NCBI GenBank assembly: GCA_044341745.1 | Contig: JBIIRD010000028.1 | Span: forward strand, 34-64,033 | Direction: 5' to 3' | From: Prosthecobacter sp. | GTDB lineage: Bacteria > Verrucomicrobiota > Verrucomicrobiia > Verrucomicrobiales > Verrucomicrobiaceae | Length of the DNA: 64,000 nucleotides | Part shown: piece after piece, positions 13,082-57,040 of the stretch | Position numbering within the stretch: position 1 is the first letter of the stretch | Layout of the letters: each line of letters begins with the position of its first letter | Made by a program: the position numbers and the translations under genes | Notes under the pieces: generated by a model | Told to the model about the DNA's origin: nothing | Seen by the model: only the letters and a program-made list of their open reading frames with translations | Database searches by the model: none

Positions 13082-13108
13082 CGATGAGGTTGTTGGATGT
13101 GCCGTCCG

Positions 13109-15808
13109 TTACGGGGCGGCGAGCTGGGCGGTGCCTGCTCCTCCATCCGGTCCCGAACTCAGGAAGAAGCCGTGGGTGTGGGGGGCTTCAGGTGCATGTG
13201 CCTGAAGCAGCACGCCCATGAAGCTGACCTTCTTGGTCTGACCGGTCGGTGTGAAGGTGCCCTTGTAGGTGCCTTTGGCCGTGTCGATGGACAGGGTGTA
13301 GCTGTTATCAGCGGGGGTCACTTTGTCGGTGGCGGAAACCGAGACATTCTTGGTCATGGAGATGGATGGCTTGCCGCCTTCAAAGGAAAGCTCAGCCGCG
13401 CCGGCCCCCAGCCCAAGGGACGAGTTGAAGGTCGTCGTGCCGTCATAGTGCATGCCATCCCCGTCGACCTTGATGCCGTTAGGCCAGCCCGCCGTGTAAA
13501 CGGGGGTGGGCTTGGCCGATGCCGGACGGAACCACAGTAGGTCTTCGCCAGTGATGTCGCCGTGGGCCGTGCCAAATTCCAGAGGGCCGCTGATGGATCC
13601 TCCGCCTGAATACAGGGAGGCGAAGAAGGGCATGAAGTTGCCATGGGAGAGCGGGGCGCTTGCCGTCACGGTGGTGCCGTCGGCCAGGGTGGCGGTGATG
13701 GATGCAATGCCCGTCGGCGAGACGGTCACCGTTCCAACTCCGTCGCCCTGGGGAAATTGGGTGGCGGTGTAGCCGTTGTTCGGGTCTGCCTGACGGGGGA
13801 AGGCCAGGGTGTAATAGCCGCTGGTCGTCTTGTTCAGCAGGGCGGTGGGCTTGAGGTCCTTGCCATTGTAGTAGGCGCGGTCGGCCTCCACGAAGGAGAA
13901 GTTAACGCTGTCCTTTTCACTGAGGATGCCCTGAAGCTTGTTGGCGCCTGCCACGAGCGGGTTCATTTCGACGCCGAGGCTGAGGACGAACGAGGGTTTG
14001 CCCTTCCTGGGAAGAATGAGGGTTTCGGCAAGATCCTTGCCAAACAGCGCCTGGCCGGAGCTGGCAAAGGTGATGTTGGTGATCGAGAATTTCTGACCGT
14101 CGATCTGGATGCTGCCGGAGCCCGTTCCCTTGTCGGTGACGGTGATGTTGATGAAGCCTTCTGAAGCATTGCTGGGAGTGGTGGAGCCGCCTGCGGTGAG
14201 AAGGCCGTTGAAGACGCCTTTGACGCCTGGGAAGGGAGTCGCGCGGAAGTGAGCGACGAGAGTCAGGCCTTCAGAGAAGGTGAAGCTGAGGATGGGTGAG
14301 CGGTCACCGACAAGGATGCCTTGGTTGCTTTCCCAGTAGTCGAGAATGAAGCCTGGTTTGGCGACGGCGCTGAGGGTGTAGGTGCCGCCGATCTGGTAGG
14401 CGTTGCCGGCTTTCAGGCCGCTGATGCTTCCCTTGGCGGTGTCACCCGGCGCGACGGTGGCGGCAAGCGAACGCATTTTGACGGAGGTGAAGAGACGGGT
14501 GGCGGTGGCGGAGACATTGCCGTTCACGTCGATGGCCCTGGCATGAAGGGTGTTGAGGCCGCTGACAGGGGTGACGACGGTGTTCCAAGAGCTGGAGGAG
14601 ACGGCGAGGTTCTGATAGGCGCCGCCGTTGAGCGAGAATTCGACATGGTCGATGTCGCTGTCATCCTGGGCAAAGCCCGTGACACTGACGCTGGTGGCGG
14701 ATTCGCCGAAGGAGGCGTTGATGCCAGGGGAGATGAAGGCGATTTCGGGCAGGTTGGTTTCAACCGTTGGAAGAACGTCGATGGAGACGGTGGTGGTGGC
14801 GGGGGTGCCGACAACGGCTCCGCCTGTGGTTGCACCGAGGGAGAGTGTGAAGGTCCTCGTGGTGAGGGCGCCGGCCTGGGGAATCAGAGTGATGGCGACC
14901 ACCTTGCTGGTTTCACTCGCCGAGAAATTCACCGTTCCCGCAGGGGCCGTGAAATCCGTGCCGGCGGCTGCGGTGCCGTCCGTGGAGTTCAAGGCCACCG
15001 TCACCGAACCAGGACCGCCTGACTTGCGGGTGACCACGACGTTGATGGAGGTGGCGCCCTGAAGGGCATGGAACTCCGAAGCGGCAAAGGCCAGGCCGAC
15101 AGAGTCGGTGGAGGACACAGCGACGGTGCCGGTAAGGCCGTAGGAGACTGCCGCCGAGGCGGTGGTCTGACTGGCGTAGTCGACGCCACCGACGAAGATG
15201 GAATAGTCGCCGGGCTGCAGGAAAAAGGTTCCTGTGACCGTGCCATCCGCGACGCCATCACCCAGGATGCCGGGGGCATCTCCGAAGAGGGCGGAGGTGC
15301 CGTCCACGGCATGGCCGACATAGAGGAAGTCGGACAGGTCGGCAAAGGAGGTGCCGGCATCGTTGCCAACCTTCCAGTTGTCGAGCGAACGGTAGCAGCC
15401 CTCCTTGGCCACACCGGTGCGGGTGGCGGTGTAGGAGGCGCTGATGGCGGAGTAGTCGTAATCGGCTCCTCCGCTCAGGTGAGCCAGGCCGCGGAAGAGG
15501 CTGAAGCCTGGCTTGAGTGTGCCGTCCTTGGCGCCGCCGTTGGTGGAGCCTGAGAAGGTGATGGTGACGAAGGAGGCGGTGGCGACATTGAAGCGGTAGT
15601 AGCGCAGCTTGTGGCTGTCACCGTAGTCGGCGTCAGTGCCATCCGCCCAGCCATGGCTGCCGGTGACGGCCTGGTTGGAGATGGTGACGGGTGTGGTGGA
15701 GACGGCGGGGTCAAGGACGCCGAAGTCGCGTCCGGTGTAGCCGATGTGCCCGAAGGCGTGGATGCCGCCCAGCAGGGAGAGGGCGAGGCAGGGGAGTAAA
15801 CGTTTCAT
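13109..15808 (-). CDS. Giant secreted protein 3: N-terminal domain related to the giant-2 repeat, Calx-beta, Ig-like domains, shared C-terminal module
   Basis: 899 aa with a signal peptide (MKRLLPCLALSLLGGIHAFG). Calx-beta-like segment at about aa 238-345 (SVTVALNSTDGTAAAGTDFTAPAGTVNFSASETSKVV). The C-terminal ~375 aa are homologous to the C-termini of the 17215-21159 and 21190-25533 products. Confidence 0.85.
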   Translation of the reverse strand: MKRLLPCLALSLLGGIHAFGHIGYTGRDFGVLDPAVSTTPVTISNQAVTGSHGWADGTDADYGDSHKLRYYRFNVATASFVTITFSGSTNGGAKDGTLKPGFSLFRGLAHLSGGADYDYSAISASYTATRTGVAKEGCYRSLDNWKVGNDAGTSFADLSDFLYVGHAVDGTSALFGDAPGILGDGVADGTVTGTFFLQPGDYSIFVGGVDYASQTTASAAVSYGLTGTVAVSSTDSVGLAFAASEFHALQGATSINVVVTRKSGGPGSVTVALNSTDGTAAAGTDFTAPAGTVNFSASETSKVVAITLIPQAGALTTRTFTLSLGATTGGAVVGTPATTTVSIDVLPTVETNLPEIAFISPGINASFGESATSVSVTGFAQDDSDIDHVEFSLNGGAYQNLAVSSSSWNTVVTPVSGLNTLHARAIDVNGNVSATATRLFTSVKMRSLAATVAPGDTAKGSISGLKAGNAYQIGGTYTLSAVAKPGFILDYWESNQGILVGDRSPILSFTFSEGLTLVAHFRATPFPGVKGVFNGLLTAGGSTTPSNASEGFINITVTDKGTGSGSIQIDGQKFSITNITFASSGQALFGKDLAETLILPRKGKPSFVLSLGVEMNPLVAGANKLQGILSEKDSVNFSFVEADRAYYNGKDLKPTALLNKTTSGYYTLAFPRQADPNNGYTATQFPQGDGVGTVTVSPTGIASITATLADGTTVTASAPLSHGNFMPFFASLYSGGGSISGPLEFGTAHGDITGEDLLWFRPASAKPTPVYTAGWPNGIKVDGDGMHYDGTTTFNSSLGLGAGAAELSFEGGKPSISMTKNVSVSATDKVTPADNSYTLSIDTAKGTYKGTFTPTGQTKKVSFMGVLLQAHAPEAPHTHGFFLSSGPDGGAGTAQLAAP
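13112..14236 (-). other. Shared C-terminal module (copy in giant 3)
   Basis: Begins GVFNGLL...INITVTDKGTGSGSIQIDGQKF and ends TAKGTYKGTFTPTGQTKKVSFMGVLL...HGFFL. It is collinear with the modules at 17218-18318 and 21193-22401. Confidence 0.7.
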
Positions 15809-15920
15809 GAAATAGTTTCGTTAAGTGGATGAAGATCTGAAGGCAGGTGCAGCTCCGGCTTGAGCCAGGGACGTGCAGAATGATGGCGCGTCGTGGCGCC
15901 GGAGATTTGAGCGGAGAGGG

Positions 15921-16328
15921 TCAGGCCCGGCCTCGTGGAGGCCCTTCCGGGGGCGGGTGGTTTCCTGCCTCCGCCTTTTGAATCAAATTTGGATAGGTCA
16001 TGCGGCGTGCCGCCGGAGGCACGATCCGCAGGGTGTCGGCGACCACGGCCTCAAACTTCTTGAGGGAAGGCTTCGCTCCCTCGGCATCCTTGCCGCGGGT
16101 CTTGCGGCCGCCTTCCTCGACGGCTTCGCAGAGAGGACAGGGGTGCTGGCCGTCGAAGGTCTTGGTCACGGCCTGGAAGAGGCCGTCCGACTGTGAGTAG
16201 CTCACGAGCATGGAGGTCCAGGCGATGCCCTGGATCACAGCCCACTGGAGGCCCAGGGACAGGCACATCATCCCGAGGATGATCCAGCGGATCACCTTTC
16301 CCGGGAGGCTGTGGCTGCTTGTCTGCAT
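15921..16328 (-). CDS. Small membrane protein with HPCPLC motif (paralog 2)
   Basis: 135 aa. TM helix LGLQWAVIQGIAWTSMLVSYS, then TFDGQHPCPLCEAV (motif at nt 16128-16145). Clear paralog of the 28658-29086 product. Confidence 0.8.
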   Translation of the reverse strand: MQTSSHSLPGKVIRWIILGMMCLSLGLQWAVIQGIAWTSMLVSYSQSDGLFQAVTKTFDGQHPCPLCEAVEEGGRKTRGKDAEGAKPSLKKFEAVVADTLRIVPPAARRMTYPNLIQKAEAGNHPPPEGPPRGRA

Positions 16329-16338
16329 GACGGATGTT

Positions 16339-17172
16339 TCAGAAGCGCCACAGCACGCTGGTGTGCAGGGTGAAGTCAGGTGCGGAGGGTGTCAGGCCGC
16401 CGCCAACGCCGAGGCGCAGTGAGAAGCCTCCGGGCAGGCCCAGCATGGTGGTCAGAAGGGCCTGATGAGAGCCTTGTTTCTCCTCGAAGTCGCCGAGAGC
16501 CTCCAGGCCGACGGACAGGTCGTGGTTGATCTCATGGCGAAGGCCCAAGGCATAACCAAAACCTGGTTTTCCGCCGTCGCCGGAGACAAAGCTGACCAGG
16601 TTGAGCACCATGCGGGTGCCCTCCATCAGGTCGGCTTCAAGGATGACGCGGGAATGCCAGCCGTTTTCGCCGTGACGATGAATGCCGCCATGGCTGCCGT
16701 GATCGGTCCCGGAATGGCCGTGGGAGTGAGGGGTGGGCGGAGGGGCGTCTGGACCGCTGCCGGTGTCGTGGACGTGGGCGGCGCTGTCCTGGTGCGAATG
16801 CCCGGAGGACTGGGCGAACTCGTAGCCCGTCCACAGGCCGGCTCTGAAGTTCAGCGGTCCGGTCGGCGGCAGAAGGGAGACGACGAACTGAGGTGTGATG
16901 CCGGTGTTGTCCCAGCCGCTCCCATCATCAGCAAATCCCGCCGTCAGGCCGAAGGCCAGGGACGAGGCCAGGCCGAGGTAGAACCCGGGTTCGCTGGAGA
17001 ACTCGCTGCTGTCTCCATCCCTTGTCCATTCGAATCCCGCAATGCCCACGCCACCCATTGAGGATGGGATGGCGCTGTCCTGAACCAGGATAAAATCGCG
17101 TCCATGGTGGCCATGGGCAGGGTGGATGACCCAGACAAGAAGCATGAATACAAAAGGCAGTGGACGCGGCAT
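16339..17172 (-). CDS. Putative outer-membrane beta-barrel protein with His-rich loop
   Basis: 277 aa with a signal peptide. Alternating-hydrophobicity segments and a C-terminal aromatic end (...HTSVLWRF) typical of OMP beta-signals. A central ~53-aa segment carries 12 His. The mature N-terminus is HGHHGRDF. Confidence 0.65.
   Translation of the reverse strand: MPRPLPFVFMLLVWVIHPAHGHHGRDFILVQDSAIPSSMGGVGIAGFEWTRDGDSSEFSSEPGFYLGLASSLAFGLTAGFADDGSGWDNTGITPQFVVSLLPPTGPLNFRAGLWTGYEFAQSSGHSHQDSAAHVHDTGSGPDAPPPTPHSHGHSGTDHGSHGGIHRHGENGWHSRVILEADLMEGTRMVLNLVSFVSGDGGKPGFGYALGLRHEINHDLSVGLEALGDFEEKQGSHQALLTTMLGLPGGFSLRLGVGGGLTPSAPDFTLHTSVLWRF
16651..16809 (-). other. His-rich segment of the putative barrel protein
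   Basis: SSGHSHQDSAAHVHDTGSGPDAPPPTPHSHGHSGTDHGSHGGIHRHGENGWHS: 12 His counted in 53 residues. Confidence 0.9.
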
Positions 17173-17214
17173 GTCGGGCCGGAGGAAGGGGCTCGGTGAA
17201 TGCTGGAAAGGGTG

Positions 17215-21159: not shown

Positions 21160-21189
21160 TTCGTGGAGGGGGAGAGGTTTGAAAAGCGG

Positions 21190-24100
21190 TCAGGGATTCG
21201 TGTCGGACAGCTCGACACGGCCGGAAAGGATGCGGGTGGTCGTCGGAGTTGTTTTGGGGGAGGCGGCAGGCATCTCTGCGAGGTTGAAGAAACCATAGCC
21301 AGCGGGGCCGCCGCCATCGTCGACAATCATGCCCAGGAAGGTGGCGCTGCGCGGGAGGTCCTTGGCCGGAGATACGCTTGTGTCGGAGTCCACCAGCTTG
21401 AAGCTGCCCTGAAAGGCCCCGGTGACGCCGGGTGTGAACGTGGTGCCGCTGCCGGGGGTGAGGGTGAGCTTCACCTGGCCCGGGTTGCTATCCGGCGGGT
21501 CCAGTTTCGCGGGGCTTCCCTTGAGGATTTCAAAGGGGTTCCAGTCCAGGCGTGTTGCGGGTGAGGGGGCCCTGCCTTCCCGGAAGGTCAGGCGTGCGTT
21601 GCCCGCACCGGCGAGAAGACCCATGGCAATGTCGTCCTTGCCGGGAATCTCATAAGCACCGCCCAGGGTCACGAGACTGAGCGGAGCCGGGTTGAGCGGG
21701 TCAAGGCTCAGAGGATCAAAGCCGTCCTTGTAGCTGCGAGTGGTGGCAGTTTGCCGGGGCTTGTACCAGCTCATGGCGGAGGTGTTGAGGCAGCCCGCTC
21801 CACCACCGATGATCTCCAGGGTGCCAAGCAGGGAGCCCGTTTTTGAATAAAGCAGGGTGAAAACGGGGAGGCGACCGCCCTGGCCAAGCGTGCCTGAAAG
21901 AGTGACAGGTGCGGAATTGTCGGCCAGACGCACCACGCCGCTGACGGCGCCCTTGCTGCTGACCTTGAAGGCTCCAAAGCTGTGACCCTGGGGTTTGTTG
22001 TCATCGCCGAGGTCCCCGGCACCGAGTTTCATGGCGAAGGTGTAGCCGTTCACATAGGGGGCGGGGGCGGAGGCGGGAAGCCGCGCATCCAGGAGCAGGG
22101 TGACACCGTCGGACTTGATCTCGCCGGTGAGACGCCTGGATGAGCGCAGAAGGGTGAAGGTGATGTCGATGTCAGGAAGATCCTTGCGGATGATGGTTGC
22201 CTCACCCGCGGGGTCCGCATCAGGCAGGACGGCGAGCTCGCCCTTGAAGCTGTGCTTGACGGTGCCGAGGCTGAGGGTTCCGGAGAAGGTGCCGAGTTTG
22301 GTTGTGGTCACCGTCAGCAGTCCTCCAAGATTGCGGTTGAGCGCGGCTGAGGCGTGACGTGGCACGATGCCCTGGAACACACCGAGGGAATCCGCAGGGA
22401 AGGGGTCAACCCTGACCTCCTTGACCTTGTCGTAACCGGTGCCCGCAGCGTTGGCGGCCTTGATGCGGACGAAGTAGGTTTTCGCGGTGGTGGGCCTGCC
22501 GGTGATGGCGCCGGTGGCGGGGTTGAGCTTCAGTCCTGCGGGCAGGTCCGTTGCAAAATATTTGGTTGGGCCGTTGCTGGCGCTGACCTGGGCGGTGTAG
22601 TTCTGCCCGACGATCGCGTCAGGCAGGAGGAGGTCATCCATGACGGGCCAGGGAAGGATGGTCACGGTGGCGTCCTGGCTGGTCGATCCGCCGGCGTCAT
22701 TGTAGACACGCACGGAGTAGCTGCCGGCCTGGGCGGTGTCGAGGGTGGTGAGCACCAGGGTGCTCTTGGTGGCGCCACTGATTTCGGAGGTGCCCTTGCG
22801 CCACTGATATTTCAGGCCGGTGCCGCTGGCGGTGACGGCCAGGGTGACCTTGGTGCCCTGCTTGACGGTGACGGAGGCGGGATGCTTCTTGATTTCAGGG
22901 ACAGGCAGGACGTTGACCGTGGCGATGCTGCTGGTGACGCTGCCCGCGCCGTTGGTGATGACGACCTTGTAGCCGCCGCCGTCGGAGGTGGAGGCCGGGG
23001 CTAGGTCGAGCACGGGGGAGTCACCGCCGACGTTCGTGGTGCCGCGCTTCCACTGGTAGGAGAGTCCCATGCCGTCCGCGATGACCTTGAGCTGAACCGC
23101 CGCTCCGGGAACCACCGTGGTGCCGACAGGCTGTCTGCGGATGATGGCCTTGCCGTTGACCAGGCCGGGGTTGGGATCGTCCTTGTCGAGGAAGCCGTCT
23201 TCGTCCTCGTCGCCGCCAAAGCGGCTGCCTGCGCCGGGAAGCACACCCATGAAGCTGAGCCAGTCACCGGAGGCGAGGGAGCTGAGGAGTGCGGAACGGG
23301 ACAGCGGCGCGTCGGAGGCCCTGTCGGAACGATAGGCGCCTGATTTCCAGAGGTAGGAGCGGGGCTCGCCGCCGATGAAGCCGCGGGCGACGAGGTCGCA
23401 GTCGTAAAAACCGATGGCGTCCGGGATGGTGCGGGATTCGAGCAGGGCGAGCTCGGAGGTGACCGATGGCTGGGATCGGTTGGCGGTGGTGACGGTGGGG
23501 CCATAGCCGACCGTGGGTGCGGTGCCGGTGTCGAAGCAGTTGAGGAAGGCCGTTACGTCCGCGAACTCCTGCGGCGTCTCCAGCAGGTCGAGAACATAGG
23601 GATGGACGATGGGCATGACATAGCCTGTGCCGTCATGAAGAAGGCCGAAACCGCTGAGCGACTCGGCGCCGGCGCGACCATCATAAAACTGACGCTGATA
23701 GAGGGTGCGGAGCGGCGGGTTCTTGACCGGCTGGCTCAGGCCCGCCTCCTGCGGCAGGTCGATGTTGTGGTTGCTGCCGTCGGGGTGGATGTGGCAGGTG
23801 ATGCAGTGGCTCTTGACGTGGCTGTTGAACAGGTCGCGTCCCTCCTCGGGAATGCCGGAGCCAAGCGTGGCGGGCAGGCTGCGGTCAAGGTTGCGGTTGG
23901 GGTTGGCGTGATGAACGACGGACATCAGGTAGTCCGCCATGTTGTCGATGTCGTCCTTGGACAGCTCGGAGCCGCCCATGAGGTTGTGGAAGGTGCCGTT
24001 GAAGCTTTGCAGCGTCGGCTTGTCCCCCCGCCAGTGGAAGGGGGCTCCCGCCTGCATGCCGCGCAGGGTCTGCGTGGTCATCGGCCCCTTCATCGGGTGC

Positions 24101-25533
24101 ATGTCATAAGGCCGTGGTGTCGTGTCATGGACGGAAAGGTTGGCGCCAAAGACGGTGACCATGCTGCCGCCAGGGTCACCGAGGTCCCAGGCGAGGCCGT
24201 CACGGTCGGCGTCGAGGTGGCACATGCCGCAGGAGTTGGTGCCGTTGCCGGAGAGACGTGCGTCAAAAAGCTGTCCGCGCCCCTTGCGGATGAGAGCCGG
24301 GACCGGGTCGCTGGCGCCGAGGGCGACCTCGGCCTCCAGCGCGAAGCTCGTGGTGTTGATGACGGAGACCGAGCTGGAGATCTTGTTGAGCGTGTAGAGC
24401 CTGCCCCGCACCTCGTCGAGCACCAGGCCGCGTGGGCCGCGCATGGCGGAGGCGCTGGTGTCCGCGCCGGTGCGGATGTCGATGCGCTGAAGCACGCCGC
24501 CGGTGGCCGGATCGATCTTGGCGATGCGGTCGGAGGCGAAGGCGGCGGTCCAGGCGCTGGAGCCGTCGGCGGAGAACACGAGGCTGGCCGGCTGGGCGAG
24601 AGCGACAGAGCGTGCGGGCTCGTTGGGAAGGGTGTTGTAGTCGATGCCGGGGTTGAGGTCGTGAACCGTCACGTCGGAGGGGGTGACGACGGAAAGGCGG
24701 CTGTCGACGAAGTGGCCGCGCAGGGTGGGTTCGAAGCGGACAAGGTTGAGCGAGTCGGTGTTGGCGACCCAGAGCTCGTCCGTGCCAGGGCGGCAGGCGA
24801 GGTCAAAGAGGTTGGTGCCGACGTCACTGATGTAGCGGACCACGGCGCGGGTGGTGGTGTCGATCTCCGCCACGTCCTGGTCGAGGATGATGTTAGGCAC
24901 ATCGGGGTGGCTGGCGGCGACGATCTGGGCGGTGTCGGGGGCTTCGGGCAGGGCGGGATTGGCTGGCGCCGGCTGTGGTGGCGCCTTCTGGCGGGGCAGG
25001 ACGGTGGTGCGGTTTCCGGAGAGGAGGAAGGCGGCGTAGACGCGGGTGCCGTCGGGGCTCAGGGAGAGCGCGTGGGGATAGACGCCGTTGAGGGGGATGG
25101 TGGCGACGGCGGCGCGGGAGGCGGCGTCGTAGACACGGATTTGGTTGGCGCGTGCGCAGGCAATCCAGGCCTGGCCGCCGACAAAAAGCACGTCGGTGGG
25201 CTCGTCGCCTGTGCGCAGGGTCTCGATGACGGCGCTGGTGGAAAGGCTGAGGATGGAGACGGTGTCAGCGGCCTCGTTGACAACCCAGACCTCGTCATTG
25301 GTGCGGGCGCGGACGGTGACGGGTTCGAGACCGACCGGGATCTGGGCCACCCGGGACGGGGTGGCGCCGCTGAGGTCGAAGACCGTCACCCTGGCGCTGG
25401 GCGAGTCGGCGGCGATGAGGCGGGAGCCGTCGGGCGTCATTGCGAGAGGGTGTACCTGGCGCGCCTCGAAGTGCCGCCAGGCGGCTCCGGCATGGCCGGC
25501 CAGGAGCAGGGGGATGAGCAGGAGTGTTCTCAT
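21190..25533 (-). CDS. Giant secreted protein 1: YncE/YVTN-type beta-propeller, di-haem cytochrome c peroxidase/MauG-like domain, two I-set Ig domains, shared C-terminal module
   Basis: 1447 aa with a signal peptide. Propeller-like repeats (LAMTPDGSRLIAADSPSARVTVFDL, LSLSPDGTRVYAA...). Two CxxCH motifs: CGMCH (nt 24217-24231) and CITCH (nt 23791-23805). A CCP-like PFHWRGDKPTLQSF block. Ig repeats (LSYQWKRG..., LKYQWRKG...GSYSVRVYNDAG). Confidence 0.85.
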   Translation of the reverse strand: MRTLLLIPLLLAGHAGAAWRHFEARQVHPLAMTPDGSRLIAADSPSARVTVFDLSGATPSRVAQIPVGLEPVTVRARTNDEVWVVNEAADTVSILSLSTSAVIETLRTGDEPTDVLFVGGQAWIACARANQIRVYDAASRAAVATIPLNGVYPHALSLSPDGTRVYAAFLLSGNRTTVLPRQKAPPQPAPANPALPEAPDTAQIVAASHPDVPNIILDQDVAEIDTTTRAVVRYISDVGTNLFDLACRPGTDELWVANTDSLNLVRFEPTLRGHFVDSRLSVVTPSDVTVHDLNPGIDYNTLPNEPARSVALAQPASLVFSADGSSAWTAAFASDRIAKIDPATGGVLQRIDIRTGADTSASAMRGPRGLVLDEVRGRLYTLNKISSSVSVINTTSFALEAEVALGASDPVPALIRKGRGQLFDARLSGNGTNSCGMCHLDADRDGLAWDLGDPGGSMVTVFGANLSVHDTTPRPYDMHPMKGPMTTQTLRGMQAGAPFHWRGDKPTLQSFNGTFHNLMGGSELSKDDIDNMADYLMSVVHHANPNRNLDRSLPATLGSGIPEEGRDLFNSHVKSHCITCHIHPDGSNHNIDLPQEAGLSQPVKNPPLRTLYQRQFYDGRAGAESLSGFGLLHDGTGYVMPIVHPYVLDLLETPQEFADVTAFLNCFDTGTAPTVGYGPTVTTANRSQPSVTSELALLESRTIPDAIGFYDCDLVARGFIGGEPRSYLWKSGAYRSDRASDAPLSRSALLSSLASGDWLSFMGVLPGAGSRFGGDEDEDGFLDKDDPNPGLVNGKAIIRRQPVGTTVVPGAAVQLKVIADGMGLSYQWKRGTTNVGGDSPVLDLAPASTSDGGGYKVVITNGAGSVTSSIATVNVLPVPEIKKHPASVTVKQGTKVTLAVTASGTGLKYQWRKGTSEISGATKSTLVLTTLDTAQAGSYSVRVYNDAGGSTSQDATVTILPWPVMDDLLLPDAIVGQNYTAQVSASNGPTKYFATDLPAGLKLNPATGAITGRPTTAKTYFVRIKAANAAGTGYDKVKEVRVDPFPADSLGVFQGIVPRHASAALNRNLGGLLTVTTTKLGTFSGTLSLGTVKHSFKGELAVLPDADPAGEATIIRKDLPDIDITFTLLRSSRRLTGEIKSDGVTLLLDARLPASAPAPYVNGYTFAMKLGAGDLGDDNKPQGHSFGAFKVSSKGAVSGVVRLADNSAPVTLSGTLGQGGRLPVFTLLYSKTGSLLGTLEIIGGGAGCLNTSAMSWYKPRQTATTRSYKDGFDPLSLDPLNPAPLSLVTLGGAYEIPGKDDIAMGLLAGAGNARLTFREGRAPSPATRLDWNPFEILKGSPAKLDPPDSNPGQVKLTLTPGSGTTFTPGVTGAFQGSFKLVDSDTSVSPAKDLPRSATFLGMIVDDGGGPAGYGFFNLAEMPAASPKTTPTTTRILSGRVELSDTNP
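21193..22401 (-). other. Shared C-terminal module (copy in giant 1)
   Basis: Begins LGVFQGIVPRHASAALNRNLGGLLTVTTTKLGTFSGTLSLG and ends GVTGAFQGSFKLVDS...PRSATFLGMIV...GYGFFNLAEMP. Confidence 0.7.
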
Positions 25534-25539
25534 GACGGA

Positions 25540-25845
25540 TCAGCCTTTGACCGGGTCTAACGAACGAATGTTGTATATCTTCGCCTGGGCGCCCAGGGCC
25601 TTCACGGCCTCCTCACGGGTGATCGGGCGGGAGGAGATGATCTGGAGCCTGGGCAGGCCGCCCTTTTGCGGAGAGAGAATGCGGGCCGACTGCACGCCCT
25701 TCACGGTCATCATCGCGGCCTTCACATGGCTGGAGCAGGCGCTGCAGAAGATGCCGGCCACCTCGCCCTCGTAGGTCAGCGCGGGCTCGGCGGCCGGGGC
25801 CAGCCCAACCAACAGTGTAGAAACAAGAAGGAGCAGGGTTTTCAT
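25540..25845 (-). CDS. Exported heavy-metal-associated (HMA)-like small protein
   Basis: 101 aa with a signal peptide. YEGEVAGIFCSACSSHVKAAMMTVKGV resembles the GMxCxxC ferredoxin-like HMA fold. It ends 6 nt before the start of giant 1. Confidence 0.6.
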   Translation of the reverse strand: MKTLLLLVSTLLVGLAPAAEPALTYEGEVAGIFCSACSSHVKAAMMTVKGVQSARILSPQKGGLPRLQIISSRPITREEAVKALGAQAKIYNIRSLDPVKG

Positions 25846-25859
25846 GGCGGGATGGTGGT

Positions 25860-26564
25860 TCAGGAATGGGGACGGCCGAGGAGCTGGTGGACGTGCTCGT
25901 GCAGCCGCTCGCCCATCAGCTTGGCGATTTCAGGCTGGGGATGAAAGACGGAGTAGTAGCCGCGGACACGGCCCCGGCCGTCGATCAGGGCGATGCGCAG
26001 GTCGTGCTCAAACTCGTCGTCGGGGGTGATTCGCTCCTCCACGGGGATGGGTTTGGCGGCGGTCATGCCGACTTCGTCGGTCATGAAGCTCCAGAGCCTG
26101 CCCCGGTCGCCCGTGATAAACCACCAGGGGGAGTTTTCCTTGGCGCCGACGGCGTCGGCATAAGCCCTGAGCAGTGCGACATTGTCGCGCTCAGGCTGGA
26201 TGGCCACGGAGAGCATGTGGAATCCCGGGTGGCCGGCGAACTCCTGGTTCAGTTTTTGAAGCTGGGCGGTGACCGCGGCGCAGCCGTGGGGGCACTGGGT
26301 GTAAAGGTAGGCCGCCACGATGACATTGCCCCGGAGATCCGAGAAGCGGACGGCCCTTCCGTTTCTTTCGATGGCTTCAAGATCGCCCTTGATCGTGGCA
26401 TAGACAGGCAGATCAGCCTTGGGAAGGACAGTCTGAAGCACGCGGTTGTAGGCAAGGCTGAGGCCGATGATGAGGGTGATCGCCCCGCCTGTCAGCAGCC
26501 AGAAGCGCACCGGGCGGAACTCGGCGGTTTCTGGAAGGGATCTGCTGGCGGCGGGTGTGCTCAT
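25860..26564 (-). CDS. SCO1/SenC-family copper chaperone / thiol-disulfide oxidoreductase
   Basis: 234 aa with an N-terminal membrane anchor. Thioredoxin-fold block VIVAAYLYTQCPHGCAAVTAQL with CxxxC, plus the downstream conserved His region (FEHDLRIALIDGRGRVRGYY). Its start overlaps the upstream stop (ATGA at 26561-26564). Confidence 0.8.
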   Translation of the reverse strand: MSTPAASRSLPETAEFRPVRFWLLTGGAITLIIGLSLAYNRVLQTVLPKADLPVYATIKGDLEAIERNGRAVRFSDLRGNVIVAAYLYTQCPHGCAAVTAQLQKLNQEFAGHPGFHMLSVAIQPERDNVALLRAYADAVGAKENSPWWFITGDRGRLWSFMTDEVGMTAAKPIPVEERITPDDEFEHDLRIALIDGRGRVRGYYSVFHPQPEIAKLMGERLHEHVHQLLGRPHS

Positions 26565-27169
26565 GGGACGGGCGGATGCAGGGGCTTGGTGGGGGTGCGC
26601 CTGGAGAGCTCGTCCAGCGTCCAGGGGGTTAAACGACCCGGGTTGGCCTTGCGGATTTGCCGAATGGTCACGTCATTCACCTGGAGCGGCCTTTGTCCCC
26701 AGGTGCGAAGCACAAAGGTGGCTACGTCGGCAATCTCCCGGTCATTGAGCCAGGTTCCAAGCCCGGGCATGATCGGGTGCCTGATGAACGTGCCAGGAAT
26801 GGGTCCCGAGACACCGTGCACCAGAATGGCGGCAAAATCCACCTCCCTGCATCCTTGCAGCCAGGGTGAGCCGACAAGGGGGGTGCCAAGTCCTGGCAGC
26901 CCCAGGCCCGCTGGTTCATGACACATGGAGCAGGCCCTTCGGTAGACCGCGGCTCCCTGCATCATCTGTCGTTCTGAGGTGGTCATCACCGGGAACAGGT
27001 CATGAACAAGGTTCCTGGGTGCAAGGGCGTTCGCTGCGGTCAGGCCTGCCGCCAGCACAAGATGAGCCGCCAGCATGCCCCGGAATTTCACGCCCTGGCC
27101 ACGACAGGCGCGCAGTCCCGTGCGGGACCACGCCGTCTGGCATGGCGGGATGAAGGATGGCGGTGTCAT
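26561..27169 (-). CDS. c-type cytochrome (mono-haem, class I-like), copy C
   Basis: CSMCHEPAGLGLPGLGTPLVGSPW... with a distal ...IMPGLG region. The start is uncertain. The ATG at 27169 forms an ATGA overlap with the upstream stop; alternatives are 27217 or 27076. Confidence 0.75.
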   Translation of the reverse strand: MTPPSFIPPCQTAWSRTGLRACRGQGVKFRGMLAAHLVLAAGLTAANALAPRNLVHDLFPVMTTSERQMMQGAAVYRRACSMCHEPAGLGLPGLGTPLVGSPWLQGCREVDFAAILVHGVSGPIPGTFIRHPIMPGLGTWLNDREIADVATFVLRTWGQRPLQVNDVTIRQIRKANPGRLTPWTLDELSRRTPTKPLHPPVP

Positions 27170-27882
27170 GACTTGGGCCCGGAGAGGGGGACTTGAAGCA
27201 AACTTGGTTCGTCCCACATGGCGGCGCGCTCCTTTTCGGCCGCCCTGACCGCCTTGACCTGCTCGACCGTCACGGCGCCGGCCTTGTTGCCAAAGGCGTT
27301 GCGCGCATAGGTCAGCACCGCGGCGATCTGATGGTCCGGCAGGGCGCCCTGGGGAGGCATCATCGGTGCTGGTGTTGTGAAGGGCGTGCCGTTGACCTTG
27401 ATCGGTCCCTGGAAGCCGTGCAGCACAATGCGGATCAGACGTTCAGGCCCGGGAGCCGTGACCCAGTCCGAGCCCGCCAGGGGCGGAAACATGTTGGGCA
27501 GGCCGAGGCCGGTGGGCTGATGGCACACGGCGCAGATGGTGGTGAAGAGGGTCTTTCCTTCTTCATACCCCGGCAGTGAGGCGCTGTCCGCGACGGCAGG
27601 TGCCGGCGCTGAGGGAGGTGGAGTGCTTCCTGCGGGAACCGGACTGGCTGCGGCCGCCTGTGCTGCTGCAGCGGCGGTAGCAGTGGCGGCAGGACTGGTG
27701 GAGGAAGCCTTGTCAGCCGGTTCAGGCTGTGGTCGTGCGGCTTTGAAACCGCCGATCAGGAAGGCGACGCCCCAGAAGGCTGCGAAGCCTGCCACGACGA
27801 TTCCGAAGGCGCTGAATCCGATGCCGGCGATTCTGGCGCCGGTGCTTTCCGCTGAGTTTGGAGAAGTGGAATGATGGCTCAT
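27166..27882 (-). CDS. Membrane-anchored c-type cytochrome, copy B
   Basis: 238 aa. TM helix (IAGIGFSAFGIVVAGFAAFWGVAFLIGGF), an Ala/Pro-rich linker, then CAVCHQPTGLGLPNMFPPLAGSDW...PMMPPQG...VLTYARNAFGNKAG. Confidence 0.85.
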   Translation of the reverse strand: MSHHSTSPNSAESTGARIAGIGFSAFGIVVAGFAAFWGVAFLIGGFKAARPQPEPADKASSTSPAATATAAAAAQAAAASPVPAGSTPPPSAPAPAVADSASLPGYEEGKTLFTTICAVCHQPTGLGLPNMFPPLAGSDWVTAPGPERLIRIVLHGFQGPIKVNGTPFTTPAPMMPPQGALPDHQIAAVLTYARNAFGNKAGAVTVEQVKAVRAAEKERAAMWDEPSLLQVPLSGPKS

Positions 27883-27888
27883 GTGATC

Positions 27889-28371
27889 TTACTCCACGGG
27901 AATTTTTTCCAATTCGGCCTCGGTCCACATGGCCGTGCGTGCCTTTTCCGCCTCGCGGATCGTCTTGACCTGCTCCGGGGTGACAGCTCCGGCCTTGTTG
28001 CCAAAGCTGTTGCGCACAAAAGTCAGCACCGAGGAGATCTGCTGATCATTCAAGGCGGCGCCCTGGGGTGGCATGAGCGGGGCCGGCGTGGTGAAGGCCT
28101 TGCCGTTGACCTTGATGGGGCCGGTGACGCCATGCAGGACCATGCGGATGAGGCGGTCAGGTTTCGGAGCCGAGGCCCAGTCTGAGGCGGCCAGGGGAGG
28201 GAACATGTTGGGCAGGCCCAGGCCGGTGGGCTGGTGGCAGGCGAAGCAGACCTGCATGTAAACCTGCTGGCCCTGGGTCATGACCTCGGGGGAGATAGGC
28301 TCCTGGGCCGGTGCCAGGCCGGAGGCCGATACTAGGACGATCATTGAAGAGAAAAGAGAAGTGCGAATCAT
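27889..28371 (-). CDS. Periplasmic c-type cytochrome, copy A
   Basis: 160 aa with a signal peptide. CFACHQPTGLGLPNMFPPLAASDW...PLMPPQG...VLTFVRNSFGNKAG. Close paralog of copy B. Confidence 0.88.
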   Translation of the reverse strand: MIRTSLFSSMIVLVSASGLAPAQEPISPEVMTQGQQVYMQVCFACHQPTGLGLPNMFPPLAASDWASAPKPDRLIRMVLHGVTGPIKVNGKAFTTPAPLMPPQGAALNDQQISSVLTFVRNSFGNKAGAVTPEQVKTIREAEKARTAMWTEAELEKIPVE

Positions 28372-28657
28372 ATACGGGACAGGTGGGGGTAGGGTGTCGG
28401 TCAGAATGGTTGCCGTCGTGCGCTGGCATGGGCTCCCGTTCAGGGAGTGGCAGTGCGGATCGGCCCCGCTGGGGGGGAGGATTTCAAGCCTCAGAAAAGC
28501 GCAGCTTGAACACGGACCGGTTTATCAGGATGCGGCGGGATGAGCGAGCCCTGGGAGGGCCGATGTTCTCAACCCGGGTGATGAGACCGGAAGGTTGAGT
28601 ATCCCATGGCGCCGGGCGGATGATGCCAGCCTGTGAAAAGGAAGCAGTTCCTGAGGC

Positions 28658-29086
28658 TCAGGCGAGGTCGAATTCGGGGGGAGGGGTGGCCGGGCGTTGG
28701 GAACGCGTGGCCGCCGGGCTGGAGAACGTGCTCCAGCGATTGGGCTCCGAAGGGGGGAAGACAAAATGGGGCACCTCGACCACGGCGAGGGTAAGTTTCA
28801 TCTCCTTCAGCGTTTTCAGGGGAGTCTGATTCTTCCCGGATTCCTGCTCTGCATCCACGCCCTTTTTCACGGCGCGGCAGAGCGGACAGGGGTGCTCACC
28901 GTCAAAGGTGTCGCTCAAGCCTTCGGAGAGCGAACCTTTTTCGATCGAGTAGCTCACGGCCATGCCAACCCAGGCGGCCGACTGCAGGGCCGCCCAGTGC
29001 AGCCCGACCGACAGACACACGGCCATCACGGTCAGCGCGCGCATCAGGCGGAGCAGACTGGGTGTGACGATGCAGTTGTAGCTCAT
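28658..29086 (-). CDS. Small membrane protein with HPCPLC motif (paralog 1)
   Basis: 142 aa. TM helix VGLHWAALQSAAWVGMAVSYS, then TFDGEHPCPLCRAV (motif at nt 28877-28894). First gene of the co-directional cluster. Confidence 0.8.
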   Translation of the reverse strand: MSYNCIVTPSLLRLMRALTVMAVCLSVGLHWAALQSAAWVGMAVSYSIEKGSLSEGLSDTFDGEHPCPLCRAVKKGVDAEQESGKNQTPLKTLKEMKLTLAVVEVPHFVFPPSEPNRWSTFSSPAATRSQRPATPPPEFDLA

Positions 29087-29198
29087 CGGGGAAGTGAAGA
29101 ATTCCCCAATTCAGCGGCCTGCACAAGGCTGAATTGTGAAGCCTGGACAAATCAGATTTGTCTGGCCGACCTCCGTCTTTCCCTGGAAACTTCACCTC

Positions 29199-30212
29199 AT
29201 GGATGCCGTCCCTGATCCGTTTTCCCGTCGTGATGCCCTCAAGGCCACCATCGCCTCCCTGGGGCTTGGTGCCATGGCCTTTGAGCCGACCACCGCTGTT
29301 GCCGCCCCCAGGGCCCCGGACGAGAGGCGTGGTTCCCCGAAGCGGCATGACATGCTCAAGTCGATCAATCTCTGGGCCTTTCCCTATCCTGAACGGATGA
29401 CCCTGCGCGAATGCCTGCAGCTTGCCAAAGACGCCGGGTTTGACGGCATCGAGCTCAACTACGACCTCGACAACGACCTGTCGCCGAAACATGACACGTC
29501 CGACTATGTGAAGATCCGCCGGATGGCGGACGAGATCGGCATCCAGATCAGCGGCCTCTGCTCCTTCCTGTTCTGGCCTTATCCTCTGACCAGCAATGAT
29601 CCCGCCAAAAGGGAGCGCGGCATCGAGCTGGCCGGGAAGATCGCGCGCTGCGCCCATGACCTTGGCGTGGAGAACGTGCTCGTGGTGCCGGGAGCCGTGC
29701 ACATCCCCTGGCGCGACGACCACGAGCCGGTGCCTAACGATGTTTGTGACAACCGTGCGAGGGAGGCGGTCGGCAGGCTCGCGAAGGAGGCGGAGAAGCT
29801 GAAGGTCTGCCTCAACATCGAGAACATCTTCTTCAACGGCTACCTGATGACCCCGATGGAGATGAACGCCTTCGTGGACGGCTTCGGCAGCGAGCATGTG
29901 CGCGTGCACTTCGACACCGGCAACATCAGCATGTTCCAGTTTCCGGAGCACTGGGCCAGGGTGCTTGGCGGCCGAACCAAAAACGTGCACCTGAAGGAGT
30001 TCACGAAGAAGGGCACGGATTTCAGCCTGGAGACCTTTCGTCCCCTCCTCGACGGCACCACGAACTGGCCCGCAGTCACCGACGCGCTCGCCGAGACCGG
30101 CTACAAGGGCTTCCTCACCTTTGAATACTTCCATCCCTACGCCCATTATCCGGAGGCGCTGATCTGGCAGACCTCGGACTCGATGGACCGCATCCTGGGC
30201 CGCAGGTCATGA
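29199..30212 (+). CDS. Tat-signal sugar phosphate isomerase/epimerase (xylose-isomerase-like TIM barrel)
   Basis: Tat-like FSRRDALKATIASLGLGA. TIM-barrel blocks (GFDGIELNY, ENVLVVPG, LNIENIFFNG, HFDTGN, TFEYF). The start was set at 29199 (the ORF begins at 29136). Confidence 0.8.
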   Translation: MDAVPDPFSRRDALKATIASLGLGAMAFEPTTAVAAPRAPDERRGSPKRHDMLKSINLWAFPYPERMTLRECLQLAKDAGFDGIELNYDLDNDLSPKHDTSDYVKIRRMADEIGIQISGLCSFLFWPYPLTSNDPAKRERGIELAGKIARCAHDLGVENVLVVPGAVHIPWRDDHEPVPNDVCDNRAREAVGRLAKEAEKLKVCLNIENIFFNGYLMTPMEMNAFVDGFGSEHVRVHFDTGNISMFQFPEHWARVLGGRTKNVHLKEFTKKGTDFSLETFRPLLDGTTNWPAVTDALAETGYKGFLTFEYFHPYAHYPEALIWQTSDSMDRILGRRS

Positions 30213-56942: not shown

Positions 56943-56959
56943 TCGGTATGGTTTTATAT

Positions 56960-57034: not shown

Positions 57035-57040
57035 TTTTCC

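What the first reader, a model, noticed from the sequence alone, without database searches (positions are those of the whole stretch)
28658..29086. Two paralogous small membrane proteins with a TM helix and a TFDGxHPCPLCxAV motif
Seen in sequence: the products of 28658-29086 (142 aa) and 15921-16328 (135 aa) align as (V/L)GL(H/Q)WA(A/V)(L/I)Q..AW..M.VSYS ... TFDG(E/Q)HPCPLC(R/E)AV. After that point they diverge into low-complexity tails. One heads the cluster; the other sits directly after the His-rich barrel gene and before giant 3. A His-Pro-Cys-x-x-Cys motif just outside a membrane helix is the kind of site expected for Cu(I)/thiol chemistry (inference). I cannot place the pair in a named family from memory. 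It loosely recalls small CxxC proteins (DUF2946-like) found beside copper-uptake receptors, but that is unverified.
Basis: partly seen in the sequence, partly recalled or inferred. Interest (0 to 1): 0.7.

Follow-up and report, generated by a model that had tools for sequence, protein, structure and literature searches.

The report
Copper-sensing leader peptides heading copper operons
The two small genes belong to a large, unnamed family from Verrucomicrobia that most likely acts as a copper-sensing regulatory leader peptide, pausing the ribosome at a C-terminal proline run to switch the copper genes behind it, rather than as an ordinary copper-binding membrane protein.

Summary
Both ORFs are real, lie on the minus strand, and are paralogs (40% identity, E=2e-22). 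They belong to a large unannotated family: 2781 clusters at 50% identity, and all 80 genome loci fetched are Verrucomicrobiota. Pfam, NCBIfam and PDB give no match.

In 256 of 265 members a PP(P)[RQEK] run lies 3-6 residues before the stop and 59-69 residues after the CxxC.

The family architecture is:
- an N-in/C-out signal-anchor helix;
- an exported TFDGxHPCxLC motif;
- a C-terminal polyproline run;
- a gene position always ahead of a copper-related module, often with one copy per module.

This is the architecture and context of the DUF2946 leader peptides CruR and CutF, which sense copper as nascent chains. The TonB-dependent receptors downstream of family members are 37-41% identical to proteobacterial receptors that sit behind annotated DUF2946 genes. 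Sequence homology to DUF2946 was tested and not found.

Best reading (about 0.6): a new, possibly convergent family of copper-sensing ribosome-arrest leader peptides. Nothing here is experimental. A stable membrane copper or thiol protein remains the main rival.

The parts
28658..29086 (-). Small gene A (142 aa), first gene of the copper cluster; proposed leader/sensor peptide
   Evidence: ORF; 92-88% identical orthologs that keep the same start; covered by contigs of 4 of 4 metatranscriptome runs
28952..29038 (-). A residues 17-45: signal-anchor transmembrane helix with conserved S26, G28, W31, Q35, A38, W39, M42
   Evidence: AF2 helix 9-50 with pLDDT 83-94; conserved columns; N flank net charge +2.05 against C flank -0.59 across 232 members, so N-in/C-out
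28877..28909 (-). A residues 60-70: TFDGEHPCPLC, the predicted exported metal/thiol-sensing motif
   Evidence: T60, C67 and C70 invariant; F61, D62, G63, H65 and P66 at least 90% conserved in 145 diverse members; the Cys pair lies at the N-terminus of predicted helix 68-85
28676..28684 (-). A residues 135-137: PPP, the proposed ribosome-arrest site, 5 codons before the stop
   Evidence: P136 and P137 invariant in A1 and at least 90% conserved in A3; 256 of 265 members have PP(P) 59-69 residues after the second Cys, mostly 3-6 residues before the stop
28372..28657 (-). 286-nt spacer between A and the first cytochrome c gene; candidate site of termination or attenuation
   Evidence: 40% C and 23% G on the sense strand; no intrinsic terminator; fold z=-0.9; islands of identity with L010/L011, but 66-69% identity overall
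15921..16328 (-). Small gene B (135 aa), the paralog heading the next module
   Evidence: ORF; E=2e-22 against A; profile E=2e-42
16200..16286 (-). B residues 15-43: signal-anchor helix
   Evidence: alignment to A; hydrophobic window 15-34
16128..16160 (-). B residues 57-67: TFDGQHPCPLC
15936..15956 (-). B residues 125-131: PPPEGPP, the proline-rich motif; the last Pro lies 4 codons before the stop
   Evidence: aligned with the family PPP[R] column
15809..15920 (-). 112-nt spacer between B and the 899-aa Calx-beta protein
   Evidence: 40% C and 17% G; fold z=-0.9
25540..28371 (-). Module behind A, part 1: three c-type cytochromes (27889-28371, 27166-27882, 26561-27217), SCO1/SenC (25860-26564) and a secreted HMA-like protein of 101 aa (25540-25845)
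   Evidence: Pfam; the HMA-like ORF with CSAC motif matches the HMA genes in L004 and L006
16339..25533 (-). Module behind A, part 2: giant 1 (propeller + MauG-like di-haem + Ig, 21190-25533), giant 2 (CorA/MopE-like Cu(I)-binding + Ig, 17215-21159) and a His-rich 277-aa putative outer-membrane barrel (16339-17172)
   Evidence: Pfam; the same trio follows family members in many genomes
13109..15808 (-). Gene behind B: 899-aa secreted Calx-beta/Ig protein
   Evidence: Pfam

Best explanation
A and B are cis-acting, copper-responsive leader peptides (regulatory upstream ORFs) of a new family from Verrucomicrobia. They work like the DUF2946 proteins CruR and CutF.

Proposed mechanism:
1. The nascent chain is targeted to SecYEG by its N-in/C-out signal-anchor helix.
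2. When the ribosome reaches the C-terminal PPP run, the TFDGxHPCxLC motif about 64 residues upstream has just emerged on the periplasmic side.
3. Whether that motif binds copper or forms a disulfide or helix changes the pull on the chain. This sets how long the ribosome stays arrested at PPP, a few codons before the stop.
4. The arrested ribosome covers the end of the leader and the start of the C-rich spacer. That decides whether transcription or translation continues into the module behind it: cytochromes c, SCO1, HMA and the CorA/MauG-like giants behind A, and the Calx-beta protein behind B.
5. The controlled genes look like copper acquisition and cuproprotein biogenesis genes, so I expect the CruR logic: arrest without copper keeps them on, and copper releases the arrest and shuts them off, probably through Rho.

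Shown here: the architecture, the motif spacing, the topology prediction, the gene order, and the positional equivalence to DUF2946. Inferred: arrest at PPP, copper binding, the sign of regulation, and the involvement of Rho.
For: (1) Architecture. Signal-anchor helix: AF2 H9-50, with the N flank net positive in 99% of members. Invariant CxxC with near-invariant His. PP(P)[RQEK] in 256 of 265 members, 59-69 residues (median 64) after the second Cys; 3, 4, 5 or 6 residues follow it in 98, 47, 41 and 37 members. These are the defining features reported for DUF2946 CruR/CutF: export signal, CXXC or CXXXC, a C-terminal RAPP or PPP motif about 3 residues before the end, conserved spacing, and a long intergenic region (PMC9426467).

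(2) Position. 90 of 91 evaluable family genes in 80 species-representative genomes are followed within 700 nt by a co-directional gene: cytochrome c 24, TonB-dependent receptor 23, MauG-like giant 16, cytochrome c' 14. None ends a run.

(3) One copy per module. L077 reads small->c'; small->cyt c-SCO1-HMA; small->TBDT-PepSY-like. L055, L056, L030, L050, L088 and the window itself are built the same way.

(4) Positional equivalence. The receptor behind the L013 copy is 37-41% identical to receptors in Bradyrhizobium, Burkholderia and Ralstonia that sit behind annotated DUF2946 genes ending ...SRGPPFLT*...RPRAPPLAI*...RPRAPPLSL*. The Bradyrhizobium proteins even carry HCPLC.

(5) The partner families are the ones listed for DUF2946 operons (TBDT, PepSY_TM, ScoI, MbnPH-like).

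(6) Spacers of 286 and 112 nt follow A and B. Many relatives carry a conserved structured RNA in that spacer, with 12 of 19 pairs showing compensatory changes.

(7) CruR arrest at RAPP, and CutF stalling at PPP during co-translational export, have been shown experimentally.

(8) Weak support: gene A is the best-covered part of the locus in 4 metatranscriptomes.
Against: - There is no detectable sequence homology to DUF2946: PF11162 matches 0 of 145 members even at E<=10, and hhalign gives probability 1% over only 5 columns.
- The transmembrane helix is far more conserved (Q35 and M42 invariant; G28, W31, A38 and W39 at least 90% conserved in 145 members; S26 invariant only in the 27-sequence A1) than a simple export signal needs. 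That hints at a role for the mature protein in the membrane.
- The motif is TPPP/GPP rather than the tested RAPP/RGPP.
- The Cys-to-Pro spacing (about 64) differs from CruR (45).
- The window spacers show no significant fold and no intrinsic terminator.
- C-richness is not specific to the spacers, because the whole sense strand is C-rich (median C/G 1.42).
- The conserved RNA element of relatives is absent from the window.
- The window-clade spacer evolves faster than third codon positions.
- B starts only 10 nt after the preceding gene, so it is internal to a transcript.
- No expression or copper-response data exist for any member.
Confidence: 0.6

Rival explanations
1. The small protein is a stable, membrane-anchored periplasmic Cu(I)-binding or thiol-disulfide protein. 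The His-Cys-Cys site would hand copper to, or reduce, SCO1, HMA or the cytochromes, or gate a membrane partner through its conserved helix. The proline tail would be a docking motif.
For: Strongly conserved polar and aromatic residues on one face of the helix (W31, Q35, A38, W39, M42) and an extended TFDGxHPCxLC motif. The site is predicted to be periplasmic. The gene always sits with periplasmic copper proteins. No homology to the known leader family was found.
Against: Up to 3-4 paralogs occur per locus, each directly ahead of a different module, including receptor-only and cytochrome c'-only modules. The gene is never last in a run. No conserved polytopic membrane partner is present in the loci. 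The C-terminal half is predicted disordered. A fixed Cys-to-PPP spacing with PPP 3-6 residues before the stop is hard to explain for a docking motif. This rival can coexist with the leader role.
Confidence: 0.25
2. The protein is a leader peptide that monitors something other than copper: periplasmic redox state or disulfide formation, another metal such as Zn, Ni or Fe, or Sec/YidC insertion capacity. It would still read this out through arrest at PPP.
For: Arrest peptides upstream of DsbA or thioredoxin genes and of Sec genes are known. Some loci have neighbouring ZnuA/DtxR or siderophore-type receptors. CutF is proposed to use disulfide formation as part of its read-out.
Against: The dominant partners are copper-specific families: SCO1, HMA, CorA/MopE-like, and receptors resembling those behind DUF2946 genes with a 'copper uptake system-associated protein' neighbour. 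No Sec or YidC genes lie downstream.
Confidence: 0.1
3. The protein is a membrane-bound regulatory protein of the zinc-binding anti-sigma type that signals to a transcription factor.
For: It is a single-pass protein with a His-Cys-Cys motif reminiscent of HxxxCxxC.
Against: The motif is HxCxxC and lies on the predicted periplasmic side, after rather than before the helix. The cytoplasmic part is only about 6-16 residues. No sigma factor or regulator gene is conserved next to it. No Pfam or NCBIfam anti-sigma match was found.
Confidence: 0.03

Closest known systems
CruR (Bp2923) of Bordetella pertussis, DUF2946/PF11162 (PMC9426467; arrest shown in vitro in PMC12992588)
   Same: A small first gene of a copper-repressed operon. 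It has an N-terminal export signal, an invariant CXXC, and a C-terminal Pro-Pro arrest motif 3 residues before the end with conserved spacing. A long spacer precedes a TonB-dependent receptor plus a PepSY_TM protein. Receptors behind Verrucomicrobia family members are 37-41% identical to receptors behind DUF2946 genes.
   Different: No detectable sequence homology. The motif is TPPP[RQEK] rather than RAPP. The Cys-to-Pro spacing is about 64 rather than 45. The family has a long, highly conserved signal-anchor helix, whereas the CruR signal peptide is dispensable. Several copies occur per locus. It is also found ahead of cytochrome c/SCO1/HMA modules and giant MauG/CorA-like modules.
CutF of Rhodobacter capsulatus, DUF2946-like (PMC9973294; bioRxiv 10.1101/2025.02.05.636593)
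   Same: An exported nascent chain senses periplasmic copper through a Cys motif. It stalls at a C-terminal PPP run, depends on co-translational export, and acts only in cis ahead of a cuproprotein gene.
   Different: CutF has a cleavable signal peptide and a CXXXC motif. It switches on a detoxifying multicopper oxidase by melting a stem-loop that hides its ribosome-binding site. No such stem-loop or Shine-Dalgarno sequence is evident in the window, and the genes controlled here look like copper acquisition and biogenesis genes.
RAPP/RGPP arrest peptides (ApdA, ApdP, SecM-like; the metal-related class in PMC12992588)
   Same: Small proteins with a transmembrane or signal segment and a C-terminal proline arrest motif, encoded upstream of TonB-dependent receptor, YcnI, PCuAC or PepSY genes across phyla.
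   Different: The Arg-Ala/Gly-Pro-Pro core is absent. A has Thr-Pro-Pro-Pro and B has Glu-Gly-Pro-Pro. Motif-based screens for RAPP/RGPP would therefore miss this family.
CzcI of Cupriavidus metallidurans (CutF-like, without the proline motif)
   Same: A small exported protein upstream of a metal transport operon, proposed to be a metal-sensing regulator.
   Different: CzcI lacks the C-terminal proline motif, which the family here keeps almost without exception.

Membership tests
DUF2946 / CruR-CutF (Pfam PF11162) | Significant match to the PF11162 profile | tested here: not met
   No match for A or B at E<=1; 0 of 145 family members match even at E<=10
DUF2946 / CruR-CutF (Pfam PF11162) | Profile-profile homology to bona fide DUF2946 proteins | tested here: not met
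   hhalign of A3 (145 sequences) against A4 (14 PF11162-annotated proteins): probability 1%, with only CPLC aligned. A4 is narrow (mostly Bradyrhizobium), so very remote homology is not excluded
DUF2946 / CruR-CutF (Pfam PF11162) | N-terminal export signal (signal peptide or N-in/C-out helix) | tested here: met
   AF2 helix 9-50; 28-residue hydrophobic core, N flank +2.05, C flank -0.59
DUF2946 / CruR-CutF (Pfam PF11162) | Conserved CXXC or CXXXC metal motif in the exported part | tested here: met
   C67 and C70 invariant, H65 at least 90% conserved
DUF2946 / CruR-CutF (Pfam PF11162) | C-terminal proline arrest motif (RAPP or PPP) a few residues before the stop | tested here: met
   PP(P)[RQEK] in 256 of 265 members, mostly with 3-6 residues after it. 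This is the PPP type as in CutF, not RAPP
DUF2946 / CruR-CutF (Pfam PF11162) | Conserved spacing between the Cys motif and the proline motif | tested here: met
   59-69 residues in nearly all members, median 64. The value differs from the 45 of CruR
DUF2946 / CruR-CutF (Pfam PF11162) | First gene of copper-related operons, separated from them by a long spacer | tested here: met
   90 of 91 followed by a co-directional copper-related or receptor gene; spacers of 286 and 112 nt in the window
DUF2946 / CruR-CutF (Pfam PF11162) | Copper-dependent, cis-acting control of downstream genes through ribosome arrest | not testable with these tools
   Needs reporter fusions, toeprinting or Ribo-seq. Metatranscriptome contigs are too sparse
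RAPP/RGPP arrest peptides | Arg-Ala/Gly-Pro-Pro core near the C-terminus | tested here: not met
   A has ATPPPE and B has EGPPR. The family consensus is P.(T)PPP[RQEK]
Zinc-binding anti-sigma factors (ZAS) | Cytoplasmic N-terminal HxxxCxxC domain ahead of the helix, with a partner sigma gene adjacent | tested here: not met
   The motif is HxCxxC and lies after the helix on the predicted outside. No sigma gene is conserved nearby. No Pfam or NCBIfam hit
Thioredoxin-fold thiol-disulfide oxidoreductases (TlpA/ScoI type) | Thioredoxin fold around the CxxC | tested here: not met
   No Pfam, NCBIfam or PDB profile match. AF2 predicts only helices and a disordered tail

The most novel reading that the evidence does not exclude
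Verrucomicrobia evolved, independently of DUF2946, their own family of membrane-anchored nascent-chain copper sensors. Each copy gates one module of a copper-acquisition regulon: receptor/PepSY, cytochrome c/SCO1/HMA, MauG/CorA-like giants with a His-rich barrel, or cytochrome c'. In many lineages the leader is coupled to a previously undescribed conserved RNA structure in its spacer. The unusually conserved helix (GLHWAxLQSxAWxGM) would be part of the sensing machinery, for example by setting the pulling force at SecYEG, or by giving the released peptide a second function.
Probability: 0.45. Interest if true: 0.75.

Novelty: new variant of a known kind. Interest (0 to 1): 0.6.

Why it matters
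Sensing copper through a nascent exported chain and ribosome arrest was discovered only in 2022-2025. It is known from two proteobacterial examples of one Pfam family. A second family that is unrelated by sequence, very abundant (thousands of clusters) and confined to another phylum, yet has the same parts list, would matter in three ways.
- It would show that the mechanism is general and probably convergent.
- It would give natural variation for dissecting it: PPP against RAPP, spacing of 64 against 45, signal anchor against signal peptide.
- It would provide a ready marker for copper regulons in Verrucomicrobia, including the uncharacterised giant MauG/CorA-like proteins and His-rich barrels, and it would name thousands of 'hypothetical proteins'.

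Tried and rejected
- Pfam, NCBIfam and PDB sequence searches of A, B and profiles: no hits.
- hhalign against a DUF2946 alignment: no homology.
- The AF2 model is confident only for the helices (mean pLDDT 69.6), so no fold search was run.
- I looked in the window for a CutF-type stem-loop hiding a ribosome-binding site or for an intrinsic terminator. The folds of both spacers are no better than shuffles (z about -0.9). No terminator or promoter consensus was found, and no Shine-Dalgarno sequence is visible.
- C-richness as a mark of a Rho loading site: the spacers are C-rich, but so are the whole sense strand and other gene junctions. This is suggestive, not discriminating.
- A conserved RNA element found behind many relatives was modelled and searched in the window. 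It is absent behind A and B. No Rfam family matches in the window or in 7 loci.
- The window-clade spacer compared with L010 and L011 has conserved islands but 66-69% identity overall, lower than third codon positions.
- Metatranscriptome contigs show that gene A is transcribed, but they are too sparse and unstranded to show attenuation. No RNA run was found for the isolate Brevifollis gellanilyticus.
- The first receptor used to reach DUF2946 (L043) turned out to be siderophore-type and was uninformative.
- The cluster look-up gave no organism names for distant members.
- The anti-sigma and thioredoxin-like readings were rejected (see the membership tests).

Full report
OBSERVATION

Both ORFs are present on the minus strand: A at 28658-29086 (142 aa) and B at 15921-16328 (135 aa). 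BLASTP between them gives 40% identity over 102 residues, E=2e-22, and the quoted motifs appear as written. A family profile scanned over all six frames finds only these two copies in the window.

A is the first gene of a long minus-strand cluster, and B sits inside it. The gene order is:
- A
- three c-type cytochromes (27889-28371, 27166-27882, 26561-27217)
- SCO1/SenC (25860-26564)
- a secreted HMA-like protein of 101 aa (25540-25845)
- a 1447-aa protein with a beta-propeller, a weak MauG/di-haem peroxidase signal and Ig domains (21190-25533)
- a 1314-aa protein with a CorA/MopE-like Cu(I)-binding domain and Ig domains (17215-21159)
- a His-rich 277-aa protein with no Pfam match (16339-17172)
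- B
- an 899-aa Calx-beta protein (13109-15808)

THE FAMILY

Neither protein matches Pfam or NCBIfam, and a family profile matches nothing in the PDB. The family is nevertheless large. A word-indexed search gave 236 homologs, all unnamed. An exhaustive profile search gave 2781 clusters at 50% identity at E<=1e-3, of which 1814 reach E<=1e-10. A scan of species-representative genomes found at least 571 loci. The 80 best are all Verrucomicrobiota: Prosthecobacter, Brevifollis, other Verrucomicrobiaceae, Chthoniobacterales and Limisphaerales.

Alignments show three conserved blocks:
- A hydrophobic N-terminal helix carrying S26, G28, W31, Q35, A38, W39 and M42 (numbering of A).
- T60-F-D-G-x-H65-P-C67-x-L-C70.

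Across 265 sequences, 256 have both the Cys motif and a terminal PP(P) run. The commonest forms are PPPR (143), PPPQ (38), PPR (24), PPPE (15) and PPPK (13). The distance from the second Cys to the last Pro is 59-69 residues in nearly all members (median 64). Only 3, 4, 5 or 6 residues follow the run in 98, 47, 41 and 37 members.

AlphaFold2 with the alignment predicts one long helix (9-50, pLDDT 83-94), a short helix (53-60), a helix starting at the Cys pair (68-85), and a disordered remainder. The N-terminal flank is net positive in 99% of members (mean +2.05). The flank after the helix is net negative (mean -0.59), and the hydrophobic core spans 28 residues. That indicates an N-in/C-out signal anchor, with the Cys motif on the periplasmic side.

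GENOMIC CONTEXT

Looking up individual homologs and classifying ORFs in 89 loci by BLAST against the window proteins and a few extra references gives a consistent picture.

Of 91 evaluable family genes in 80 species-representative genomes, 90 are followed within 700 nt by a co-directional gene, and none ends a run. The next genes are:
- cytochrome c: 24
- TonB-dependent receptor: 23
- MauG-like giant: 16
- a 117-aa class-II cytochrome c' with C-terminal CKACH: 14
- His or His/Met-rich barrel: 3
- other: 9

(sequences.)

The loci are modular, and each module has its own copy. L077 reads small->c'; small->cyt c-SCO1-HMA; small->receptor-PepSY-like. L055, L056, L030, L050 and L088 are built the same way. 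The window follows the same rule, with A ahead of the cytochrome/SCO1/HMA/giant module and B ahead of the Calx-beta protein.

A gene that is always upstream of a unit, never last, and duplicated once per unit behaves like a cis-regulatory leader. A stoichiometric subunit would not be expected to behave this way.

LINK TO THE KNOWN SYSTEM

The receptors behind family members carry Plug and TonB-barrel domains and are followed by PepSY_TM-like or TonB proteins. The L013 receptor is 37-41% identical to receptors on proteobacterial replicons. In three of those I inspected, an annotated 'DUF2946 domain-containing protein' gene lies upstream: directly ahead of the receptor in Bradyrhizobium and B. 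gladioli, and separated from it by a YcnI gene in Ralstonia wenshanensis. A 'copper uptake system-associated protein' lies in the Bradyrhizobium and B. gladioli loci. Those DUF2946 proteins have a hydrophobic N-terminus and a CxxC (HCPLC in Bradyrhizobium). They end ...SRGPPFLT*...RPRAPPLAI* and ...RPRAPPLSL*.

The literature describes what DUF2946 proteins do.
- CruR of Bordetella pertussis is an upstream ORF. Its nascent product stalls the ribosome at a C-terminal RAPP motif. Copper perceived through the CXXC relieves the stall and allows Rho-dependent termination ahead of the receptor gene. The family is defined by an export signal, the CXXC, the RAPP, conserved spacing between them, first position in copper operons, and long spacers (PMC9426467).
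- Arrest of CruR at RAPP has been shown in vitro (PMC12992588).
- The partner families listed for DUF2946 operons are TonB-dependent receptors, PepSY_TM, ScoI, PCuAC, YcnI, CopC and MbnP/MbnH-like proteins. They overlap those found here, since CorA/MopE-like and MauG-like domains are the MbnP/MbnH kinds.

MEMBERSHIP AGAINST MECHANISM

By sequence this is not DUF2946. PF11162 matches none of 145 diverse members even at E<=10. A profile-profile comparison with 14 PF11162-annotated proteins aligns only CPLC, with probability 1%. That DUF2946 alignment is narrow, so very remote homology cannot be excluded. Either way this is a separate family that Pfam-based or RAPP/RGPP-motif surveys would not have picked up.

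All the architectural and contextual features that define CruR/CutF are met; the membership table lists them. The differences are:
- a TPPP-type motif instead of RAPP;
- spacing of about 64 residues instead of 45;
- a long and strikingly conserved signal anchor;
- several copies per locus;
- new kinds of controlled modules.

MECHANISM PROPOSED

Established knowledge is that a ribosome tunnel holds about 30-40 residues and the SecYEG channel roughly 20 more. On that basis a Cys motif 59-69 residues from the peptidyl-transferase centre would just be exposed on the periplasmic side when the ribosome reaches PPP (inference).

Copper binding by H65, C67 and C70, or alternatively disulfide or helix formation, would change the pull on the chain and so the lifetime of the polyproline arrest. 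The arrested ribosome sits 5 codons (A) or 4 codons (B) from the stop. It would cover the beginning of a C-rich spacer: 40% C against 23% and 17% G.

Because the controlled genes look like copper acquisition and cuproprotein-biogenesis genes, I favour the CruR logic, in which copper releases the arrest and expression stops, probably through Rho. This last step is the weakest:
- the whole sense strand is C-rich (median C/G 1.42), so C-richness does not single out the spacers;
- neither spacer folds better than shuffled sequence;
- no intrinsic terminator is present;
- the window-clade spacer is only 66-69% identical between genomes whose leader genes are 88% identical, against 80% at third codon positions.

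A SECOND REGULATORY PIECE IN RELATIVES

In at least 33 loci a conserved element of about 100 nt lies roughly 100-250 nt behind the leader stop codon, whatever gene follows. It has an outer stem (CCCGG/CCGGG), a variable inner hairpin often with a GCUAGU loop, and a 13-bp GC-rich hairpin. Of 19 predicted pairs, 12 show compensatory changes.

It matches no Rfam family at gathering thresholds in the 7 loci tested. All 36 matches in 1.18 Mb are on the leader's strand, and three of them, in L088, lie behind other genes. It is not detectable in the window. It supports the view that the region behind these leaders is regulatory, but it is not part of the feature in this window.

TRANSCRIPTION

Contigs from four metatranscriptomes cover gene A, more deeply than the genes behind it. 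The data are unstranded, sparse and may contain DNA, so they show only that the gene is expressed. Coverage at B is too thin to read.

RIVALS

The conservation of the helix is real evidence for some function of the mature peptide, and the two roles could coexist. Sensing of another signal (redox state, another metal, secretion capacity) by the same arrest mechanism is possible but fits the partners less well. An anti-sigma-like role is disfavoured by topology and by the lack of a partner gene.

VERDICT

The copper interpretation and the DUF2946 hunch are partly right. The most likely function is regulatory, and the family is a new variant of a recently discovered kind of system. All of this is computational. 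Confidence in the leader-peptide mechanism is about 0.6.

Noticed in passing
L022:3249-3351, L025:10549-10651, L014:10534-10636, L055:9422-9515, L006:9816-9911 and about 30 more loci; not in the window: A conserved structured RNA element of about 100 nt lies roughly 100-250 nt behind the leader stop codon in many relatives. It has an outer stem, a variable hairpin with a GCUAGU loop, and a 13-bp GC hairpin. 12 of 19 pairs show compensatory changes. There is no Rfam match, and all 36 hits are on the leader strand. Three copies in L088 lie behind other genes, so it may be a terminator or attenuator module.
   Followed up: partly
window 21190-25533 (-) and 17215-21159 (-): Two giant secreted proteins form a conserved pair behind family members in many genomes. 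One has a beta-propeller, a weak MauG/di-haem peroxidase signal and Ig domains. The other has a CorA/MopE-like Cu(I)-binding domain and Ig domains. They look like enlarged counterparts of the MbnH/MbnP or CorB/CorA pairs.
   Followed up: partly
window 16339-17172 (-); L008:4113-5051: A His-rich 277-aa protein with a signal peptide, a C-terminal aromatic residue and no Pfam match regularly closes the giant-protein module. A relative in L008 is His- and Met-rich (MDMHM..., HGGHGHAEHGHGGH). It is probably an outer-membrane copper channel.
   Followed up: partly
window 25540-25845 (-): A 101-aa ORF between SCO1 and giant 1 has a signal peptide and a CSAC motif. It corresponds to the weak-HMA genes in the same position in L004 and L006, and looks like a periplasmic CopZ-like chaperone.
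   Followed up: partly
L008:5188-5541 and 14 other loci (e.g. L055:9536-9928, L077:7402-7752): A 117-aa secreted four-helix-type cytochrome with C-terminal CKACH (class-II, c'-like) forms a one-gene module with its own leader copy in many genomes. It is absent from the window.
   Followed up: no
window 13000-29200, minus (sense) strand: The whole cluster is C-rich over G on the sense strand (median C/G 1.42 in 78-nt windows). The sharpest peaks, up to 3.9-4.0, fall at gene junctions (about 28309-28440, 25802-25913, 21099-21311, 15750-15865).
   Followed up: partly
window 56868-57031 (+) and 57013-57077 (+): Two adjacent tRNA genes are followed by a GC hairpin with a U-tract, a typical intrinsic terminator. 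That hairpin gave the best, weak (E=0.014) hit of the RNA model in the window. It is unrelated to the finding.
   Followed up: no
L001:4706-9616: In one complete genome (OW818661.1) the leader/giant cluster lies directly behind a DtxR-type repressor, a Phenol_MetA_deg-type barrel and a ZnuA/ABC-3 metal importer. In L004 it lies behind a MacB-type ABC transporter with DUF3299. These are further metal-transport neighbours of unknown specificity.
   Followed up: no
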